The notes under the pieces: generated by a model
What the model saw: the letters and a program-made list of their open reading frames with translations, nothing else
Told to the model about the DNA's origin: nothing
The model's database searches: none
Translations under genes and position numbers: made by a program
DNA from: a virus
Taxonomy: Duplodnaviria; Caudoviricetes
IMG/VR virus record: IMGVR_UViG_3300034022_000969
Coordinates: 1 to 53,904 of that record
Length of the DNA stretch: 53,904 nucleotides
Reading direction: 5' to 3' (one strand)
Shown here: positions 36,349-42,919 of the stretch, piece by piece
How positions within the stretch are numbered: the stretch's first letter is position 1
Layout of the letters: each line of letters opens with the position of its first letter

Positions 36349-36645
36349 ATGACAAATTTTACCGCGACCGGACTCCGCAAGTACATTGTCGACAGAAACC
36401 AAGGGGTGGATGAAAAAGGCTTGCATTTTGGGTATGTCTGCGTTGGTGATGGCGGCTTTTTTTTCACTTGGGATTTTGTTGGGTGCCGGACAAATCGAGA
36501 AAAAACAAACTCGGTCTTGGCGACCATTGAGGCTGACACTACCGATGCGCCATCGGGGCGATACTCGATGGTAAGAGTCGAAAAAGCCATTCGGGATTCG
36601 ATTCGCAAGCATGGTTTTTTTGGGGAAAATCGGTGTGAGATTTAG
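36349..36645 (+). CDS. Hypothetical protein
   Basis: First ORF after the promoter. Confidence 0.6.
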   Translation: MTNFTATGLRKYIVDRNQGVDEKGLHFGYVCVGDGGFFFTWDFVGCRTNREKTNSVLATIEADTTDAPSGRYSMVRVEKAIRDSIRKHGFFGENRCEI

Positions 36646-36725
36646 TGCTCATTGCAACTGACAGCCGACAACCCAAGCCCGTCGCAATGTGTGGCGGGCC
36701 AACGATCTTGATTGAAGAGGGCAAT

Positions 36726-36923
36726 ATGACCGGAAAAGAACTTATTACCATGATGCGTCGCCACAAAGTGACCATCAGGGAACTGGCGCGCCGAATTCAG
36801 ATTCCGCAAAAGCGTGTCCGAATAAGGCGGGATATTGGACTGGACGCTGAGACCGCTCGGGATTGGATTCAATCCATCACTGGCGTTGACCCAGGACCAC
36901 AAATAACGAAAGCAACGCGATGA
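36726..36923 (+). CDS. Small HTH-like protein
   Basis: GAGGG RBS; RRHKVTIRELARRIQIPQKRVR. Confidence 0.65.
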   Translation: MTGKELITMMRRHKVTIRELARRIQIPQKRVRIRRDIGLDAETARDWIQSITGVDPGPQITKATR

Positions 36924-37177
36924 GAACTGCCGACCAACAACCGGACGAATCGGGGCCAACAACCAAACACAGCTCGCCAAATTGCCGAGTCTGCAGGCGC
37001 GTGATCTGCAAGGGTGAGGAAGTTTACAGCAAAAAAGTTGGCAACGGCACGCGATACCGACACAAGGAATGTCGAATCAATGTGCCTGACCCGACAGATG
37101 AAGGCTCGCAACAGGACCGCAAGCTCGGTGGGTATACTTTTCAACGCGGCACCGGGACCGACCATTTTTACTCGTGA
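36920..37177 (+). CDS. Small zinc-finger-like hypothetical protein
   Basis: ATGA-coupled; CRVC...HKEC. Confidence 0.55.
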   Translation: MRTADQQPDESGPTTKHSSPNCRVCRRVICKGEEVYSKKVGNGTRYRHKECRINVPDPTDEGSQQDRKLGGYTFQRGTGTDHFYS

Positions 37178-37189
37178 TCGGAAGCGACA

Positions 37190-37504
37190 ATGACAACGAA
37201 TCCGAACCAAAAAGAATGGCAATGGTACATGACCGTTGCTGCGATCGAGCAGTATATGAACATCTGCCGAATGCCAGGTGACCTGTTCGACGAAGACCAG
37301 AATTTCCGTAAGGCACTTGAACAACTCGGGGAATTCAGCCTGACCGCGAGGCTGGCCGACATTCCACCGACCGAGTCCGGAGCGGAGATCTACCGAGCGA
37401 AAATTACGCTGCGGGGAAAACGGTATCGCATTGAATTCACCGTGCAGCCGCAACCACGCAACGAAGGCAAGTTACCCCAGTTATTGAGAGTACGATTGCG
37501 ATGA
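37190..37504 (+). CDS. Hypothetical protein (possible RelE-like fold)
   Basis: 104 aa, basic beta-rich C-terminus IYRAKI...YRIEFTV. Confidence 0.55.
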   Translation: MTTNPNQKEWQWYMTVAAIEQYMNICRMPGDLFDEDQNFRKALEQLGEFSLTARLADIPPTESGAEIYRAKITLRGKRYRIEFTVQPQPRNEGKLPQLLRVRLR

Positions 37505-37713
37505 AAGTTCAGAGACTGATTGCCGACATCACGCCGGAGCTAAAGCAGGCGGTGATATCGATCGCCGAACAAAACGGAGAGAAAATTGCGGACCTCGTTG
37601 AGCGACTGCTGCGAGCAGCTCCCGAGGTCGACCAGTTCCGCAAAGAAAACGCGATTGAGTGGCGAGGCCGGCCGGTAATGGGGAGGCCGAAAAAGCCTGT
37701 GCCAGCGGAGTAA
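37501..37713 (+). CDS. Ribbon-helix-helix-like protein
   Basis: ATGA-coupled; RLIADITPELKQAV...IADLVERLL; GRPKK tail. Confidence 0.65.
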   Translation: MKVQRLIADITPELKQAVISIAEQNGEKIADLVERLLRAAPEVDQFRKENAIEWRGRPVMGRPKKPVPAE

Positions 37714-37871
37714 ACAACCCAATACGTACGCCTCAATTCCAGTTTGATACCTATATTTTGTGTCTTGATTCCGATCCGCGAACCCGGCATGATTCCACCG
37801 TCGCGAATAGCGATCCCAAGGAAACTCTGGCATGAATGCCGCCCTTGCGGTGGAGCGCCGGTCCTCGCTGA

Positions 37872-38252
37872 GTGACTGCCCTTGATCGCTCCAAACGATC
37901 GAAAGCCCGTCTCGTGAAGAAAGCCAATTGTCCTCTCGTACCAGGTCGCGTCTACTCGTTCCAGTACCCGCGACACAATTTCCATGGCGTGTTGAGCCCG
38001 TTGGAGCCCCGGCGAATCCAAGTTGAATCGGTACGGGATCTGGTCAAGGAACCGATCGAGCGTCAAACGTTCGACGTTCAGCCGTTGCTCAAGAGAAGTC
38101 GGTATCTGGTGACCGGTGTGGATCTGGAAAAACAAGCCAAGCGATCGTTCTACGTCGACGCAATGAAATCGCTGCGAGTGCTACCAGAAGTGAAACCAAA
38201 ACGGCGTCAAACATTGAGCCCTGAAAACAAGGGGAGATCGAAAACACGCTAG
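37872..38252 (+). CDS. Stand-alone WYL-like domain protein
   Basis: FQYP, PRRIQV, YLVTGVDLEKQAKRSFYVDAM matches the WYL C-terminal pattern. Confidence 0.55.
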   Translation: MTALDRSKRSKARLVKKANCPLVPGRVYSFQYPRHNFHGVLSPLEPRRIQVESVRDLVKEPIERQTFDVQPLLKRSRYLVTGVDLEKQAKRSFYVDAMKSLRVLPEVKPKRRQTLSPENKGRSKTR

Positions 38253-38303
38253 ACAGTCGGTCAAACTGGGGTAGCTCAATGGCAAACAGATCGCACCGAG
38301 CGA

Positions 38304-38342
38304 ATTATGAGTCCTCTGCTCTAACCATTGAGCTACAGCCCC
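38304..38342 (-). other. attP core region: 5' half of a tRNA-CAU (Ile2-like) ending at the anticodon loop
   Basis: Minus strand GGGGCTG-TA-GCTC-AATGGTTA-GAGC-A-GAGGA-CTCATAA-T; tRNA similarity stops there; 6 nt past the int stop codon. Confidence 0.85.
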
Positions 38343-38348
38343 AGTGCC

Positions 38349-39497
38349 CTAATTTGTAGGGGTTGGAGGTTTGAACGCTGCTGGTGTTACCTTTTCTGTT
38401 ACCCTCGTTTGAACTGACCACAACGCTGCGGCTGTCTGCTGAGCGTCTTGGCCGACGTAGTATTTCATGGTGGTTGACACGTCACGGTGACGCATCAGAT
38501 CGCGTAACACGACTGGTAACACTCGTTTGCTCCAACGGGTGCCAAACGTCCTGCGGAGGTCGTGCGCTGAAGCGTACTTCTTTCGGCGATGGTCAACAAC
38601 GATTCCAGCCGTCTCGCCGAACGCCGAAATCGTTCTGCTGATGTTCGTTTCGTTTGTGATGGGTTGACCACGTTCTCCGATGGGAGCGAATACGCGGCCT
38701 GTGCGATGCTCGATCGGAGTACGCAGCAGCCAACGGCCAAAGTCCGGGGTGATCGGTAACAGCCGATGCTCACGGCCTTTGTCGTCCTCGGCGTCGATTT
38801 CCAAAAGCGGGTATTCGCCTGCCAAGTTGATTCTCGGGGCGGTGGGATCGTCCCAGGAGAGCGACACGGCTTCGGACAGGCGAAGACCGCTGAGCCATAG
38901 ACCGTACAGCAAGTGCCGCCACGATGCGATTTGCTGGGGCTGGACCACCTTTCCAACGGCGGAGAGCAGGCGAACAAACTCGAACAGGGTCAGGTCACGG
39001 CCTTTTACCTTGCGGCCTGAGACCTCACGCGACTTGGGGAACGTGGGGACCGTCGAGGTGTAGCCTTGCTCCTGCGACCACTGCAACGCGCAACGGATGG
39101 CGATGATGTGGCCCCTGATCGTGGATTCGGATTTCTTCTGGCCACGCAGCTGGGAGACGTATTGAGCCACTACCGATGTGTTGATCGAGGAGAGCTGCGC
39201 GGGTCGCATCGTTTCTGTGAAGACCTTCAATTTGCTGAGGTGCCAACGTTCTGTTGCCGATTCCAAGCCCGACAGGTGCCGGATTTGATAAAGATCTTGG
39301 AACGACTCCCAGGGCATTGCACCGTCACCGGAGGCCTGCGTCTCGTTGAGGTGTTTTTCCAGATCAGACGCGGCTCGTTCCGCCTTGCCACGGGTGGTGC
39401 ATTTGGACGATCTCGTGCATTGCTTGCCGGTGGTCGGGTCACGCCAGCGAAGGGCTAAGAATTTCCGGCCGTAATCGATCACATAGACCCTGATCAC
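38349..39497 (-). CDS. int: Tyrosine integrase
   Basis: SGLRLSEA, DKG, AHDLRRTF, MRH, TTMKYY catalytic motifs; N-terminal arm-binding and core-binding regions. Confidence 0.95.
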   Translation of the reverse strand: MIRVYVIDYGRKFLALRWRDPTTGKQCTRSSKCTTRGKAERAASDLEKHLNETQASGDGAMPWESFQDLYQIRHLSGLESATERWHLSKLKVFTETMRPAQLSSINTSVVAQYVSQLRGQKKSESTIRGHIIAIRCALQWSQEQGYTSTVPTFPKSREVSGRKVKGRDLTLFEFVRLLSAVGKVVQPQQIASWRHLLYGLWLSGLRLSEAVSLSWDDPTAPRINLAGEYPLLEIDAEDDKGREHRLLPITPDFGRWLLRTPIEHRTGRVFAPIGERGQPITNETNISRTISAFGETAGIVVDHRRKKYASAHDLRRTFGTRWSKRVLPVVLRDLMRHRDVSTTMKYYVGQDAQQTAAALWSVQTRVTEKVTPAAFKPPTPTN

Positions 39498-39898
39498 GTT
39501 GGCCTCGGTTTTTTGGATGGCTTCTTGGCGGACGGTTTGGCTTGCTTCTTGGCTGGCGTTTTTGCGGTGCCAGGCGGTGACTGGATCAGGTCGGATTGTG
39601 CAGCCAGATTTGCATTCCGTTTTGTCCGTAGTTCAATGGCAATTTGGTTTTGCTTCCATCGAGGTGTTTCACCTGATTTCGCGCATCTGTATTGATCGCG
39701 AAATTCGCTTTCGGCTGTTCCTGAAAGCTTGACAATCGTGGAGGTGTAAACCCCAAACGCGGCCTGAGCTTGTAAGTTCAAGGCGTCAAACTGTTTGGAA
39801 CGCATTTCCGCAACGATGCTGCGAAATTTCGATGCGGCGTATTCCAATTCGGCAGCAACCAATTCAATTTCATCGGCGGTCCAAGCGTTCATCGCCAT
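39494..39898 (-). CDS. Hypothetical protein in the repressor position, coupled to int
   Basis: Stop overlaps the int GTG start; helical with Lys/Pro-rich tail; no clear HTH. Confidence 0.7.
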   Translation of the reverse strand: MAMNAWTADEIELVAAELEYAASKFRSIVAEMRSKQFDALNLQAQAAFGVYTSTIVKLSGTAESEFRDQYRCAKSGETPRWKQNQIAIELRTKRNANLAAQSDLIQSPPGTAKTPAKKQAKPSAKKPSKKPRPT

Positions 39899-39940
39899 CG
39901 AGAAATCCCAATGCAGTTTAAGAAAGTTTTTTAGAGTTGA

Positions 39941-39969
39941 AGTATTGTTGGGAATTGCAGTTGCGTCAA
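39941..39969 (-). promoter_or_regulatory. Leftward (lysogenic) promoter
   Basis: Minus strand TTGACG-17-AATACT. Confidence 0.55.
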
Positions 39970-40018
39970 TTTGGGCTCGAAAACTGTACAAAAATCCAAA
40001 AAACTTTCGCGACAGTTC

Positions 40019-40047
40019 TTGACAGTTCGAAAAGCGGATTGTATTCT
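40019..40047 (+). promoter_or_regulatory. Rightward (early lytic) promoter
   Basis: TTGACA-17-TATTCT; GACAGTTC direct repeat at 40011 and 40021. Confidence 0.75.
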
Positions 40048-40091
40048 TTCCCCGTCAGGGCGAATCACAAAACCGTCAAATAGGCATCACA

Positions 40092-40391
40092 ATGGCTACA
40101 GCAATGAAACAGCCAAAAGGGATTCCCGACTCTCTCGTTACTGGGGGAATCGATCCAAATAAGGCTTACGCACTCAATGAATTTTTGAAGGTCGCTGCTA
40201 TATCGCGTCAATCGCTGTCCGATTTGCGGAAGCTTGGACTGGTTGTGAGAGACACCGGATCGGGGACTCCCACAATGCTCGGGAGCGACTGGATTGAGTT
40301 TGTGAAAACTCGTCCTGCTCACGTGCCGAAGCCGCGTGGTCGGCACAATTTGAAGAATGCATCCGTAGGAACAACTCAACCGAATCCGTGA
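40092..40391 (+). CDS. Excisionase/Cro-like DNA-binding protein
   Basis: AYALNEFLKVAAISRQSL...GL...LGSDWIEFV winged-HTH pattern; first rightward gene. Confidence 0.7.
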   Translation: MATAMKQPKGIPDSLVTGGIDPNKAYALNEFLKVAAISRQSLSDLRKLGLVVRDTGSGTPTMLGSDWIEFVKTRPAHVPKPRGRHNLKNASVGTTQPNP

Positions 40392-40486
40392 TGTGATCCA
40401 TCGTGGCGATCATCGGCACAGGTTGCAACTAAAAGTTCCCTAGGTTTCCCAATTTAACACAAACTCAGAATTTCTAGGCCTAGAAA

Positions 40487-40690
40487 ATGACTCCATTTTT
40501 GATCTTCGGATTGGTCTTGTTTTGCTGCGGTGGCATGTGTTTGGTTGGCTGGGGGCTCCATGAATTCAATCCGATCAACGAGATCATGGAGGAAGTGACC
40601 GGCGTGGTCGAATTGCCGAAGGAGTCGGCGAGTTATTCCACCCGGTCTCGTAGTGGGATAGAGCAGCCAGGTAGCTCGCGAGGTTCATAA
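40487..40690 (+). CDS. Small TM protein (3' end overlaps the tRNA)
   Basis: Hydrophobic N-terminus FLIFGLVLFCCGGMCLVGWGL. Confidence 0.45.
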   Translation: MTPFLIFGLVLFCCGGMCLVGWGLHEFNPINEIMEEVTGVVELPKESASYSTRSRSGIEQPGSSRGS

Positions 40691-40725
40691 CCTTGAGGTC
40701 GCAGGTTCGAATCCTGCTCCCACCA
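40652..40725 (+). tRNA. tRNA-Met(CAT), initiator-like; CCA not encoded
   Basis: A-GTGGGA/TCCCAC-C-A acceptor with 1:72 mismatch, GAGC/GCTC D-stem, CGAGG-TTCATAA-CCTTG, GCAGG-TTCGAAT-CCTGC. Confidence 0.93.
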
Positions 40726-40782
40726 TTTTCCAAAAGCGCGGGGGGTCTGCGTGGAAAATCCGTTGATACAAGGATGTAAACC

Positions 40783-40965
40783 ATGTTAGTGCTAAGTCGG
40801 AAGCCCGGCGAAAAGATTTTTATTGGTGAGGATATTGAAATCACGATCGTTCGCATTGGGCCGAATACCGTTCGCATCGGGGTGACAGCTCCGAGAGAGA
40901 TGAGAATCATTCGCGATGAATTGGTCGTCGCGGAAACGCAACCTGTGGAGAGTGTGGAATCATGA
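40783..40965 (+). CDS. csrA: Carbon storage regulator CsrA/RsmA
   Basis: MLVLSRKPGEKIFIGEDIEITIV...VRIGVTAP.EMRIIRDEL. Confidence 0.93.
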   Translation: MLVLSRKPGEKIFIGEDIEITIVRIGPNTVRIGVTAPREMRIIRDELVVAETQPVESVES

Positions 40966-41318
40966 TCGCGAAAAACAATGAATTTACCGTTGAGGATCTT
41001 GGGTCGTCTCAGCTGATGCAGCGGGACAAAAACAACCAGCTGATCGGAGAGAACAACGAACTGCGAAGACAGATCGAGGTGCTGACCGCAACTATTGCCA
41101 AGCTGCAACCTGACGCGATCGAGCTGCAACGACTGCGGCAGCATGCGGAAGATGTTGTTGAATGGGTCGTGGAAGACGCGACCGACAAGCATGGGAGATT
41201 GATCAAGCACACTGTGGATGCGGCCTTGGGTGGCGAGGACTGGGTCCCAGGTTGGGTCGTGAAAAACGGGAAGCGGATTTCCCTGCTGAGCACGATTTAC
41301 GAGGTCTCTGAAGTCTGA
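40962..41318 (+). CDS. Hypothetical coiled-coil protein
   Basis: ATGA-coupled to csrA. Confidence 0.7.
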   Translation: MIAKNNEFTVEDLGSSQLMQRDKNNQLIGENNELRRQIEVLTATIAKLQPDAIELQRLRQHAEDVVEWVVEDATDKHGRLIKHTVDAALGGEDWVPGWVVKNGKRISLLSTIYEVSEV

Positions 41319-41395
41319 ACGTATCCGTGATGTGTTGAGAGATCGGGCTGAAATGTTCGGCCCGAAGAAACCAAAACGAAATGAAAGTTTGAATC

Positions 41396-42919
41396 ATGAT
41401 CGCAGCGAACACAACAATGGTTGAGCCGATTGTTATTAACAACATTGGTCCGATTGATCACTTTGAGATTCCCGCAGTGCCGGGAACGATTACGGTATTC
41501 CGGGGAAATAATGGTAAGGGGAAGTCTACAGCATTAGACGCGATTTCTGCTCTGACTCGGGGTGGAAATGGTTTGGAGTCACGAGACGGTACTGTTGGTG
41601 GATCCGCCTCGGGATTTGGCGTGACGATCAAGGTCGGTCGCGGTGGTGCGAATCGTCGCACTGGCAGTCTGGTGGTGACCTCAGTCGAGGATAAGCTTTC
41701 GATCGCCGATTTTGTTGACCCTCGGGTGAATGATCCCGTTGCGGCGGACGCTCGACGGCTAAAGGCGTTGGTCGGTCTGGTGGGGCTCAAGGCTGATCCT
41801 GCCGCGTTCTACTCGCTGTGCGGAGGTGCGGAGCAGTTTGCCGCGATCGTGAAGCCGGAAACGCTCAAGGAAACTGATCCAATTACGCTGTGCGAAAAGA
41901 TCAAGCGAGATTTGGAATCGGCGTCTCGAATGAGCAACACCAAGGCGGAGCGATTGTTCGGCGAGATCCAGGCAAAGCAGGCTGCGGCGAACGGGATTGA
42001 TCTGAAACTGGAGCATGATCGAGACGTGCTGCAGAAGAAACTTGAACGAGCAATTGCTGATCAATCGGCACTTCGCGAACGACAGGCCGCAGCGGGCCGG
42101 GCCGCACTGCAACGGCAGCAAGCCGATGCCGCGTTGAAACGGGCCGTGGAAAGCTATACCGGCAAGACGATTGGTCAGGCTGATGTGGACTTGGATTCAG
42201 CGAGGGAAGATCAGGCCACGCAACAGAAGACTGTTGAAAAGCTTGAGGATACTCTGCGGGAAGCAAGAGCCGATTTGTTGGCAGCGAATTCCAAGCTTGC
42301 GATTGCTGTGAATGCTCGTGAGTCTGCGGTCTCGCATGACGTTGCGATCGCTGGCTGGAAGAAGACTTTGGACGATTCAGCCGCCACGCAAACACCATCG
42401 GATGCGGTTTTGGAGTCGGCAGAGAAAGACGTTGCCGCAGCTCGTGAAGCGAACGAGACAGGGACGTTGATTCGCGCAGCGAAGGCGAGACTGGCCGAAG
42501 CGACCGAACTGGAGGAGCAGCGAAAGGCTGCCGTCGGTGAATCCGAGCGGCTGCGTGATGCTGCCAAGTCGGTGCTGGATGTGCTGGCCGCTGGGGTGAA
42601 GGAGTTGGTCCCAGGTCTGGAGATTAACAGCGAGTTTCGGATTGTCGTTCCGCATGCGACACGAAAATCGTGTTACTACGCGGACCTATCGCATGGTGAG
42701 GGCTGGAAAATGGCTCTGCGGATTGCCGTCAAGTCGTTCGAGCGGCTGGGTGAGCCAGGAGTTTTGGCGATTCCTCAAATTGCGTGGGAAGGTCTCGACG
42801 GTCGCAGCCGACAGGAACTGATTCAACTTGTCGGGGAGACTGATCTGTGCGTTTACACCGCCGAGGCGTCTCGTGAGGTCGATGGCGATGCCGGATTGAC
42901 TCATCAAATCGTTAAGTAA
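41396..42919 (+). CDS. SbcC/Rad50-like ABC-type ATPase
   Basis: INNIGPI, GNNGKGKST, long coiled coil, LSHGE signature. Confidence 0.85.
   Translation: MIAANTTMVEPIVINNIGPIDHFEIPAVPGTITVFRGNNGKGKSTALDAISALTRGGNGLESRDGTVGGSASGFGVTIKVGRGGANRRTGSLVVTSVEDKLSIADFVDPRVNDPVAADARRLKALVGLVGLKADPAAFYSLCGGAEQFAAIVKPETLKETDPITLCEKIKRDLESASRMSNTKAERLFGEIQAKQAAANGIDLKLEHDRDVLQKKLERAIADQSALRERQAAAGRAALQRQQADAALKRAVESYTGKTIGQADVDLDSAREDQATQQKTVEKLEDTLREARADLLAANSKLAIAVNARESAVSHDVAIAGWKKTLDDSAATQTPSDAVLESAEKDVAAAREANETGTLIRAAKARLAEATELEEQRKAAVGESERLRDAAKSVLDVLAAGVKELVPGLEINSEFRIVVPHATRKSCYYADLSHGEGWKMALRIAVKSFERLGEPGVLAIPQIAWEGLDGRSRQELIQLVGETDLCVYTAEASREVDGDAGLTHQIVK

What the first reader, a model, noticed from the sequence alone, without database searches (positions are those of the whole stretch)
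38266..38344. Reversed-orientation tRNA attP with an antisense arm that can pair only in the excised circle
Seen: right after the int stop, on the int strand, lies the 5' half of a tRNA-CAU (GGGGCTGTAGCTCAATGGTTAGAGCAGAGGACTCATAAT), ending at the anticodon loop. On the far side of the presumed crossover is CCATTGAGCTACCCCAG (38266-38282), complementary to the acceptor and D-arm part of that half. Established: tRNA-targeting elements usually carry the 3' part; 5'-half carriers are rare; lambda sib retroregulates int from beyond attP. Inference: after integration the host tRNA (Ile2-like, often single copy) is rebuilt from the phage 5' half and depends on int-operon transcription. In the circle the same bases fold into a long hairpin that masks the half-tRNA and could terminate or destabilise int mRNA. 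Recombination would thus switch an RNA fold between tRNA and hairpin.
Basis: partly seen in the sequence, partly recalled or inferred. Interest (0 to 1): 0.8.

Follow-up and report, generated by a model that had tools for sequence, protein, structure and literature searches.

The report
Phage attP carrying tRNA 5' half

Summary
On the integrase strand, 6 nt after the int stop, lie positions 1-39 of a tRNA-CAU gene (38304-38342). An inverted arm (38266-38282) pairs with its acceptor and D-arm part. Together they form a strong hairpin (z -4.8).

The 39 nt match single-copy tRNA genes exactly in one planctomycete and one verrucomicrobial genome. Four relatives of the integrase show the same layout, and one is an integrated element flanked by 42-bp repeats equal to tRNA positions 1-42. 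All five share paired arm-type repeats at near-constant distances. So this is a genuine attP of the "5'-fragment" type. That type is known but rare: 159 of 3919 islands in the Islander paper.

The switch idea fails as stated. The identity block is duplicated on integration, so the arm keeps a partner at the int-distal junction. Only int itself loses the hairpin.

The arm is absent in 3 of 4 relatives and marginal in one. It was found in no other IMG/VR contig.

My reading is that it is a lineage-specific hairpin between convergent genes. It most likely acts as a terminator or insulator, or it is a neutral inverted copy. Integration of this phage itself was not observed.

The parts
38349..39497 (-). 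Tyrosine integrase gene, 382 aa; stop codon at 38349-38351
   Evidence: Pfam PF00589 and PF02899; PHROG integrase. R206, K240, R315, H337 and Y346/Y347 are invariant in the 3-sequence alignment.
38304..38342 (-). Identity block: positions 1-39 of a tRNA-CAU gene (acceptor 5' strand, D arm, anticodon stem 5' strand, loop, plus 1 nt)
   Evidence: Exact 39-nt match to tRNA genes in L002 and L003. Lake-water contigs carrying tRNA-like sequence diverge from the phage at 38302-38305 and at 38342.
38305..38311 (-). Anticodon loop CTCATAA, the inferred crossover region
   Evidence: Inference. Identity with host or direct-repeat copies ends at tRNA position 39 (window), about 40-41 (L008, whose host tRNA was not found) and 42 (G055 repeats). 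Anticodon-centred sites are a known class (PMC4383910 Table 1 note).
38266..38282 (-). Antisense arm, complementary to tRNA positions -2 to 4 and 8 to 18
38266..38344 (-). Long hairpin formed by the tRNA half and the arm: about 25 pairs with a 3-nt bulge and a small internal loop
   Evidence: -43.5 kcal/mol for 96 nt, z -4.80
38384..38403 (-). Int-proximal pair of arm-type repeats, GGTAACAG and GGTAACAC, 12 nt apart, at -61 and -49 from tRNA +1, inside the int 3' end
   Evidence: Same positions as the repeat pair of the G385 element.
38178..38197 (-). Int-distal pair of arm-type repeats, GGTTTCAC and GGTAGCAC, 12 nt apart, at +108 and +120 after the anticodon loop
   Evidence: sequence read. 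Relatives have their distal pairs at +106 to +126.
37872..38252 (+). 126-aa ORF of unknown function that converges on int; its 3' end overlaps the distal arm-type repeats
   Evidence: No Pfam or PHROG match.
38347..38361 (-). Small 5-bp hairpin that spans the int stop codon and stays with int in both states
   Evidence: Present in the minimum-energy fold

Best explanation
The region 38178-38403 is the attP of a temperate tailed phage whose host is probably a planctomycete. Its integrase recombines at the anticodon loop of a single-copy tRNA-CAU gene. Unlike most tRNA-targeting elements, the phage carries the 5' part of the gene (positions 1-39), directly behind int and in the same direction.

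Integration would therefore give two junctions:
- Int-proximal junction: int, then phage tRNA 1-39 joined to the host 3' half. This is an intact tRNA that has lost its own promoter.
- Int-distal junction: host promoter, then the displaced tRNA 1-39 followed by phage DNA.

The inverted arm lies 22 nt beyond the anticodon loop, on the distal side. With either copy of the half it forms a hairpin of about 25 bp. The hairpin thus follows int in the free phage and follows the host tRNA promoter in the lysogen.

I take it to be a lineage-specific hairpin that ends or insulates transcription in both directions between the convergent + strand genes and int. In the lysogen it would stop the host tRNA promoter from reading antisense into the prophage.

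Shown: the sequences, the host match, the layout shared by the clade, and the 42-bp flanking repeats in one integrated relative.
Inferred: the crossover place, integration of this particular phage, and any function of the hairpin.

My confidence is about 0.9 for the attP reading and about 0.4 for the terminator or insulator role.
For: attP:
- Exact 39-nt match to tRNA genes of L002 (planctomycete MAG) and L003 (Verrucomicrobiia MAG). One copy in each genome at up to 3 mismatches.
- The integrase family is found in 149 of 398 genomes of L002's order at E<=1e-20. It is found in 0 of 301 sampled genomes of L003's class at E<=1e-50.
- L008 (59% identical int) has a different tRNA-CAU 5' half at the same place after int.
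- L015 has a tRNA-Arg(TCT) 5' half after int.
- G055 has int, then 10 nt, then the whole tRNA-CAU. tRNA 1-42 is repeated 2.2 kb upstream, and these are the only two copies in that genome.
- G385 has int followed by the whole tRNA-Arg, with a displaced 5' fragment on another contig.
- All of these fall in one 8-row clade of the integrase tree, support 97/93.
- Paired arm-type repeats shared by both arms sit at near-constant distances in the 4 relatives (shared 7-mers p 0.000-0.020). The window has degenerate pairs at the same places, and 6 of the 13 GGTWDCAS matches in the whole window lie within 585 bp around the site.

Hairpin:
- z -4.80 on the int strand.
- It fills 79 of the 96 nt between two convergent ORFs.
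- The int-strand RNA gains 7 extra pairs, two of them G-U, which the other strand cannot form.
- One relative (L041) has a consensus terminator in the same spacer. L008 has a 15-nt, 80% inverted repeat ending in a T-rich run there.
Against: - No junction of this phage with host DNA was seen. The Logan contigs break inside the 39-nt block, so they cannot link the flanks.
- The hairpin is followed only by UUUG, and the terminator scan does not call it.
- Only 1 of 4 relatives has a scan-positive terminator in the spacer. The spacer folds of the relatives are no better than shuffles (z -0.1 to -1.6).
- The arm is not conserved. It is absent in L008, L015 and L047. L041 has a 19-of-27 match with p 0.027, uncorrected for four tests, and a fold z of -0.92.
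- The G-U argument rests on two substitutions and was made after seeing the data.
- No promoter-like site for the rebuilt tRNA was found on the minus strand near 38343-38600. Promoters of these hosts may not fit that consensus.
Confidence: 0.55

Rival explanations
1. The arm is a recent, neutral inverted copy of the phage's own int-proximal sequence, for example a templated (quasi-palindrome) mutation. It has no function, and the hairpin is a by-product.
For: - The arm is found only in this phage: 0 of 4 relatives clearly have it and 0 other IMG/VR contigs carry the repeat.
- The repeat includes the 3 nt ACT that precede the tRNA on the phage side. The candidate hosts have TTG and CGC there, so the copy came from the phage, not from attB.
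- The distance from the core to the distal arm-type repeats (+108/+120) is the same as in relatives without the arm. This fits a replacement of spacer sequence rather than a selected insertion.
Against: - A structure of about 25 bp, with the only changes in its extension being two that keep G-U pairs on the int strand, sits exactly between two convergent genes, where hairpins are commonly functional.
- Long inverted repeats tend to be lost if useless (established knowledge, recalled).
Confidence: 0.3
2. One reading: a sib-like retroregulator. In the free phage the int message ends in the long hairpin, which is cut (for example by RNase III) or terminates the message, lowering Int. In the prophage int is followed by the whole tRNA instead, so the int message has a different fate.
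For: - The geometry fits for the int-linked copy. The arm lies beyond the identity block, so after integration int is followed by tRNA 1-39 plus the host 3' half (integrated relative).
- The hairpin is long enough for a double-strand-specific nuclease.
- Lambda sib acts on int from downstream (PMC5300877, passage read).
Against: - The arm is not conserved in relatives that share the same attP layout.
- The hairpin is not lost on integration. It persists at the other junction.
- No expression data exist: no RNA run was listed.
- Nothing here shows cleavage.
Confidence: 0.1
3. The inverted repeat works at the DNA level in recombination. It could be a binding site for an accessory or bending protein, or a cruciform that shapes the attP complex.
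For: It lies between the core and the distal arm-type repeats. In lambda-type sites that is where bending and directionality proteins bind (recalled knowledge).
Against: - Relatives keep the same core-to-arm distances without any such repeat. A cruciform that removed about 77 bp would break that geometry.
- One half of the repeat is host tRNA sequence, fixed by the target.
Confidence: 0.05

Closest known systems
Genomic islands and prophages that displace a 5' tDNA fragment (Islander catalogue, anticodon-centred 'A' sites)
   Same: - A tyrosine integrase.
- attP holds a tRNA gene fragment that runs from one gene end to the anticodon loop.
- Integration rebuilds the gene and leaves a displaced fragment as a direct repeat, seen here in relatives G055 and G385.
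   Different: Only 159 of 3919 catalogued islands are of the 5' type (PMC4383910 Table 1). Here the type runs through a clade of planctomycete-associated integrases whose wider family is mostly of the classical 3' type: 23 of 30 genome loci have a convergent tRNA and 2 have a co-oriented one. The extra inverted arm is not part of the known pattern.
Lambda sib retroregulation of int
   Same: A hairpin downstream of int has its far side beyond the crossover, so int is uncoupled from it by integration.
   Different: The near side of the hairpin is the identity block itself, so the complete hairpin is re-formed at the other prophage junction. No evidence of RNase III cutting, and no conservation in relatives.
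Bidirectional hairpin terminators between convergent genes
   Same: A strong hairpin fills the gap between two convergent ORFs and folds on both strands.
   Different: No U tract (UUUG only). The loop is 42 nt, or a branched top. It is not called by the consensus scan.

Membership tests
Tyrosine recombinase / phage integrase | Catalytic domain with the conserved Arg, Lys, Arg, His and Tyr residues | tested here: met
   PF00589 E 3.9e-12 and PF02899. R206, K240, R315, H337 and Y346/347 are invariant among the 3 aligned members. The assignment of these residues to catalytic roles is from recall.
tDNA-targeting attP, 5'-fragment type, anticodon-centred | attP holds a fragment identical to the target tRNA gene, running from the gene's 5' end to the anticodon loop | tested here: met
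   39 of 39 nt identical to tRNA genes in L002 and L003; identity stops one base after the loop.
tDNA-targeting attP, 5'-fragment type, anticodon-centred | The integrated form is flanked by the whole tRNA gene on the int side and a displaced 5' fragment, as direct repeats | tested here: inconclusive
   Met for relatives: G055 has a 42-bp repeat, and G385 has its fragment on another contig. Not seen for this phage: the contigs of 4 runs break within the block, and no close int relative is present in the two candidate host genomes.
tDNA-targeting attP, 5'-fragment type, anticodon-centred | Arm-type integrase-binding repeats on both sides of the core | tested here: met
   Paired repeats 12 nt apart at -61/-49 and +108/+120. 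The same places are used in 4 relatives. Binding itself was not tested.
sib-type retroregulator | A hairpin downstream of int that is separated from int by integration | tested here: met
   Met by geometry only: the arm lies outside the identity block. However, the hairpin re-forms at the other junction.
sib-type retroregulator | Nuclease cleavage of the hairpin that lowers int expression | not testable with these tools
   No RNA run was listed.
Intrinsic (Rho-independent) terminator | GC-rich hairpin followed directly by a U tract | tested here: not met
   The hairpin is present, but the tail is UUUG. It is not among the 6 terminator-like sites of 37000-41500.
tRNA gene (Rfam RF00005) | Score at or above the gathering threshold with a cloverleaf | tested here: not met
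   38267-38342 (-) scores 26.5 bits against a threshold of 29. The model uses the CCCC of the arm as a 3' acceptor strand and skips 24 nt where the T arm should be. The distal 37 nt are not significantly like tRNA 3' halves (p 0.08-0.38).

The most novel reading that the evidence does not exclude
Recombination re-wires two RNAs at once. In the free phage the int message ends in a nuclease-sensitive or terminating hairpin built from the tRNA half. In the lysogen the single-copy host tRNA is expressed only from the prophage lysogeny operon. At the same time, the host's strong tRNA promoter makes a self-masked half-tRNA hairpin at the other junction. Both int control and supply of a host tRNA that may be essential would then depend on the integration state.
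Probability: 0.1. Interest if true: 0.7.

Novelty: new member of a known kind. Interest (0 to 1): 0.3.

Why it matters
This gives a well-defined example of the rare 5'-fragment way of using a tRNA gene as an integration site, with core, identity block and both sets of arm-type repeats mapped. It comes from a group of hosts (planctomycetes) whose phages are little studied. It also shows that both orientations occur within one integrase family.

The 5' type raises a real question that the 3' type does not. The rebuilt tRNA loses its promoter, and the displaced fragment keeps it. These sites could be used to test how such elements supply the tRNA and silence the fragment.

The hairpin itself cannot at present be told apart from a one-off.

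Tried and rejected
- Metagenome scan with a 3-integrase alignment. It returned only the contig already known as L008, so no closer relatives were found.
- Viral-contig scans with the integrase. These gave 3 distinct relatives: L008, L009 and L045. L009 showed no tRNA piece next to int. L045 looks classical, with a sub-threshold reverse tRNA hit after int.
- Sample of 401 genomes of the planctomycete phylum at E<=1e-85: none found in those searched.
- Viral-contig scan for the 32-nt inner part of the half. It found 4 contigs, all with whole tRNA genes and none with an attP-like half.
- Viral-contig scan for the 12-nt inverted repeat with 30-60 nt between the arms: 0 contigs. The window's own record may be left out by the tool.
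- Sequencing runs. 20 rows were listed and no RNA holder was listed.
- Contigs of X1, X4, X5 and X6 laid on 36500-40500. There were no joints. The phage contigs end or begin inside the tRNA half (38313-38342 overlap), so these data can neither show nor exclude integration.
- The idea that the distal 37 nt are a decayed tRNA 3' half was rejected (p 0.135, 0.385 and 0.075 against three tRNAs).
- The idea that the phage's own tRNA-CAU (40652-40725) replaces the target was set aside. The two sequences are unlike each other, and by eye the phage one looks initiator-like.
- A terminator in every relative's spacer was not borne out: 1 of 4 by the scan.
- The Ile2-versus-Met identity of the target tRNA was not resolved. 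No isotype model is on hand, and the likeness to Ile2 is only recalled.
- Papers. The Williams 2002 paper on sublocation preference is not held, so I rely on the Islander paper (passages) and on one passage of a bioRxiv preprint that summarises it. A search for text on 5'-end integration gave nothing usable. Supplementary files were not opened.

Full report
**What the window is.** The 53,904-base window is a complete virus record with an 80-base terminal repeat. It encodes a large terminase, portal, major head protein and tape measure, so it is a tailed phage. Nearly all genes are on the + strand. A short minus-strand block ends with a 382-aa tyrosine integrase at 38349-39497.

**The observation.**
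- On the int strand, 6 nt after the stop codon, lie 39 nt (38304-38342) that read as tRNA positions 1-39 with anticodon CAU. They comprise the acceptor 5' strand, the D arm, the anticodon stem 5' strand, the loop CTCATAA and one more base.
- The arm CCATTGAGCTACCCCAG is at 38266-38282. It is unique in the window even with 3 mismatches allowed (0.03 expected).
- A perfect 12-nt inverted repeat (38271-38282 / 38325-38336) is joined, after a 3-nt bulge, by CCCCAG/CTGGGG.
- The gapped alignment score of the reverse-complemented half against the next 300 nt is 27, against a maximum of 24 in 1000 shuffles.
- The 96-nt RNA folds to -43.5 kcal/mol on the int strand (z -4.80) and to -38.1 on the other strand (z -4.41). 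The int-strand fold has 7 further pairs, two of them G-U, that the other strand lacks.

**Is it an attP?** Five lines of evidence say yes.

1. Host match. The 39 nt match two tRNA genes exactly among 185,579 species genomes: one in a MAG labelled Schlesneria paludicola (L002) and one in a Verrucomicrobiia MAG (L003). Each genome has one copy at up to 3 mismatches. Identity stops one base after the loop.

2. Distribution of the integrase family. It occurs in 149 of 398 genomes of L002's order at E<=1e-20. It occurs in 0 of 301 sampled genomes of L003's class at E<=1e-50. A planctomycete host is therefore more likely.

3. The same layout in relatives.
   - L008 (59% identical integrase, a 57.6-kb viral contig) has a different tRNA-CAU 5' half at the same place behind int.
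   - L015 has a tRNA-Arg(TCT) 5' half there.
   - In genome G055 an integrase 47% identical is followed after 10 nt by a whole tRNA-CAU in the same direction. tRNA 1-42 recurs 2.2 kb upstream, and these are the only two copies in that genome. This is what integration through a 5' fragment must leave behind.
   - In G385 int is followed by a whole tRNA-Arg, and a 5' fragment lies on another contig.

4. Phylogeny. In a tree of 34 integrases these five fall in one 8-row clade (support 97/93). The clade also holds one classical member (L012) and two undetermined ones (L009, L030). Among the 30 genome loci fetched, 23 have the tRNA convergent with int (the classical 3' type), 2 have it co-oriented, and 5 have no tRNA called by ARAGORN. 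L015 is one of those 5, and its tRNA half was found by eye.

5. Arm-type repeats.
   - Each of the four relatives has a pair of short repeats 12 nt apart in the int 3' end. The same repeats occur again at +106 to +126 after the loop. Shared 7-mers between the two arms number 7-20, against about 2 in shuffles (p 0.000-0.020).
   - In the window no significant exact 7-mers are shared (2, p 0.36). However, degenerate pairs sit at the same places: GGTAACAG/GGTAACAC at -61/-49 and GGTTTCAC/GGTAGCAC at +108/+120.
   - Six of the 13 GGTWDCAS matches in the whole window lie within 38178-38762.

I therefore read 38178-38403 as a lambda-style attP with its core at the anticodon loop.

**What was not shown.** Integration of this phage itself was not shown. 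Contigs from four lake-water runs hold the phage, and they also hold tRNA-like contigs that part from it at 38302-38305 and at 38342. But the phage contigs break inside the 39-nt block (overlap 38313-38342), so nothing links the flanks.

**Is the layout new?** No. The Islander paper lists 3760 islands with a 3' fragment and 159 with a 5' fragment, and its algorithm allows for both (PMC4383910, passages and Table 1). The case is a new member of a rare known kind. It is of some interest because the type runs in a clade and because both orientations occur in one family.

**The arm.**
This does not follow. The arm lies outside the identity block, but integration duplicates the block. At the int-distal junction the arm is next to an identical tRNA 1-39, now downstream of the host tRNA promoter. 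What changes is only what follows int: the hairpin in the circle, the whole tRNA in the lysogen.
- The arm is not a family feature. L008, L015 and L047 have no inverted match to their tRNA halves. L041 has an ungapped 19-of-27 match at a different place (p 0.027 in 300 shuffles, uncorrected for four tests), and the fold that uses it is ordinary (z -0.92). No other IMG/VR contig has the 12-nt repeat at 30-60 nt spacing.
- The copy includes the 3 nt (ACT) that precede the tRNA on the phage side and that the candidate hosts lack. It was therefore copied from the phage itself.
- The core-to-distal-repeat distance equals that of relatives without the arm. This argues against a cruciform role and for replacement of spacer sequence.
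- Rfam's tRNA model scores the 76 nt at 26.5 bits, below its threshold of 29, by using the arm's CCCC as the 3' acceptor strand. The distal part is not significantly like a tRNA 3' half.

**What the hairpin does.** The hairpin fills 79 of the 96 nt between two convergent ORFs and is strong on both strands. The most economical reading is a two-way transcription stop or 3'-end structure.
- It would end int and + strand transcripts in the free phage.
- In a lysogen it would keep the host tRNA promoter from reading antisense into the prophage, a need peculiar to 5'-type elements.

Support is thin. There is no U tract, and the scan does not call it. Only 1 of 4 relatives has a scan-positive terminator in the spacer.

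A neutral, recent inverted copy is nearly as likely. The sib-like model remains possible for the int-linked copy but has no positive evidence. My estimates are:
- attP reading: about 0.9
- terminator or insulator: about 0.4
- neutral relic: 0.3
- sib-like: 0.1
- DNA-level role: 0.05

**The rebuilt tRNA.** In G055 the only intact copy of the target tRNA lies 10 nt behind an integrase stop codon. The element side must therefore supply or pass on transcription. Which promoter does so is unknown: no consensus promoter was found on the minus strand near 38343-38600. The Ile2 assignment was not tested.

**Verdict.** This is a real and well-supported attP of the rare 5'-fragment kind. The proposed fold switch is mis-stated, and the arm is unique to this phage. 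Interest is modest.

Noticed in passing
window 40652-40725 (+): The phage carries its own tRNA with anticodon CAU (Rfam 61.7 bits; ARAGORN). It is unlike the attP target. By eye it has a mismatch at the top of the acceptor stem and an A11:U24 pair, which I recall as initiator-tRNA marks.
   Followed up: partly
window 40783-40965 (+): A 60-aa CsrA-like regulator gene lies just downstream of the phage tRNA (PHROG 9500, E 4.5e-14).
   Followed up: no
window 36660-36703: A stretch of about 44 nt is shared with many other contigs in the lake-water runs. Summed contig depth at 36686 in X1 is 112.8, against a bin-mean word depth of 14.5-15.1 in the flanking bins, and contigs diverge on both sides. 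It contains a small GC-rich inverted repeat and lies upstream of a likely ATG at 36726. Nature unknown.
   Followed up: no
L008 4104-4126 and 4331-4353; L015; L041/L042; L046/L047: Members of the 5'-type clade each have their own 8-10-nt arm-type repeat, as pairs 12 nt apart on both sides of the tRNA half. The distal pair is always about 106-126 nt after the anticodon loop. Classical members L013 and L014 show GGTAACAC pairs in the int 3' end.
   Followed up: partly
L004 1-1217: A viral contig from an isolate genome has an unrelated integrase (BLASTP E 0.08 against the window's). It ends 10 nt before a whole, co-oriented tRNA-CAU that shares positions 8-39 with the window's half. It may be another 5'-type element. 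Its displaced fragment was not looked for.
   Followed up: no
L012 (G355:C1), just after the int stop: The one classical member of the 8-row clade has, by eye, a perfect stem with a T run between the int stop and the convergent tRNA-Cys (sequence).
   Followed up: no
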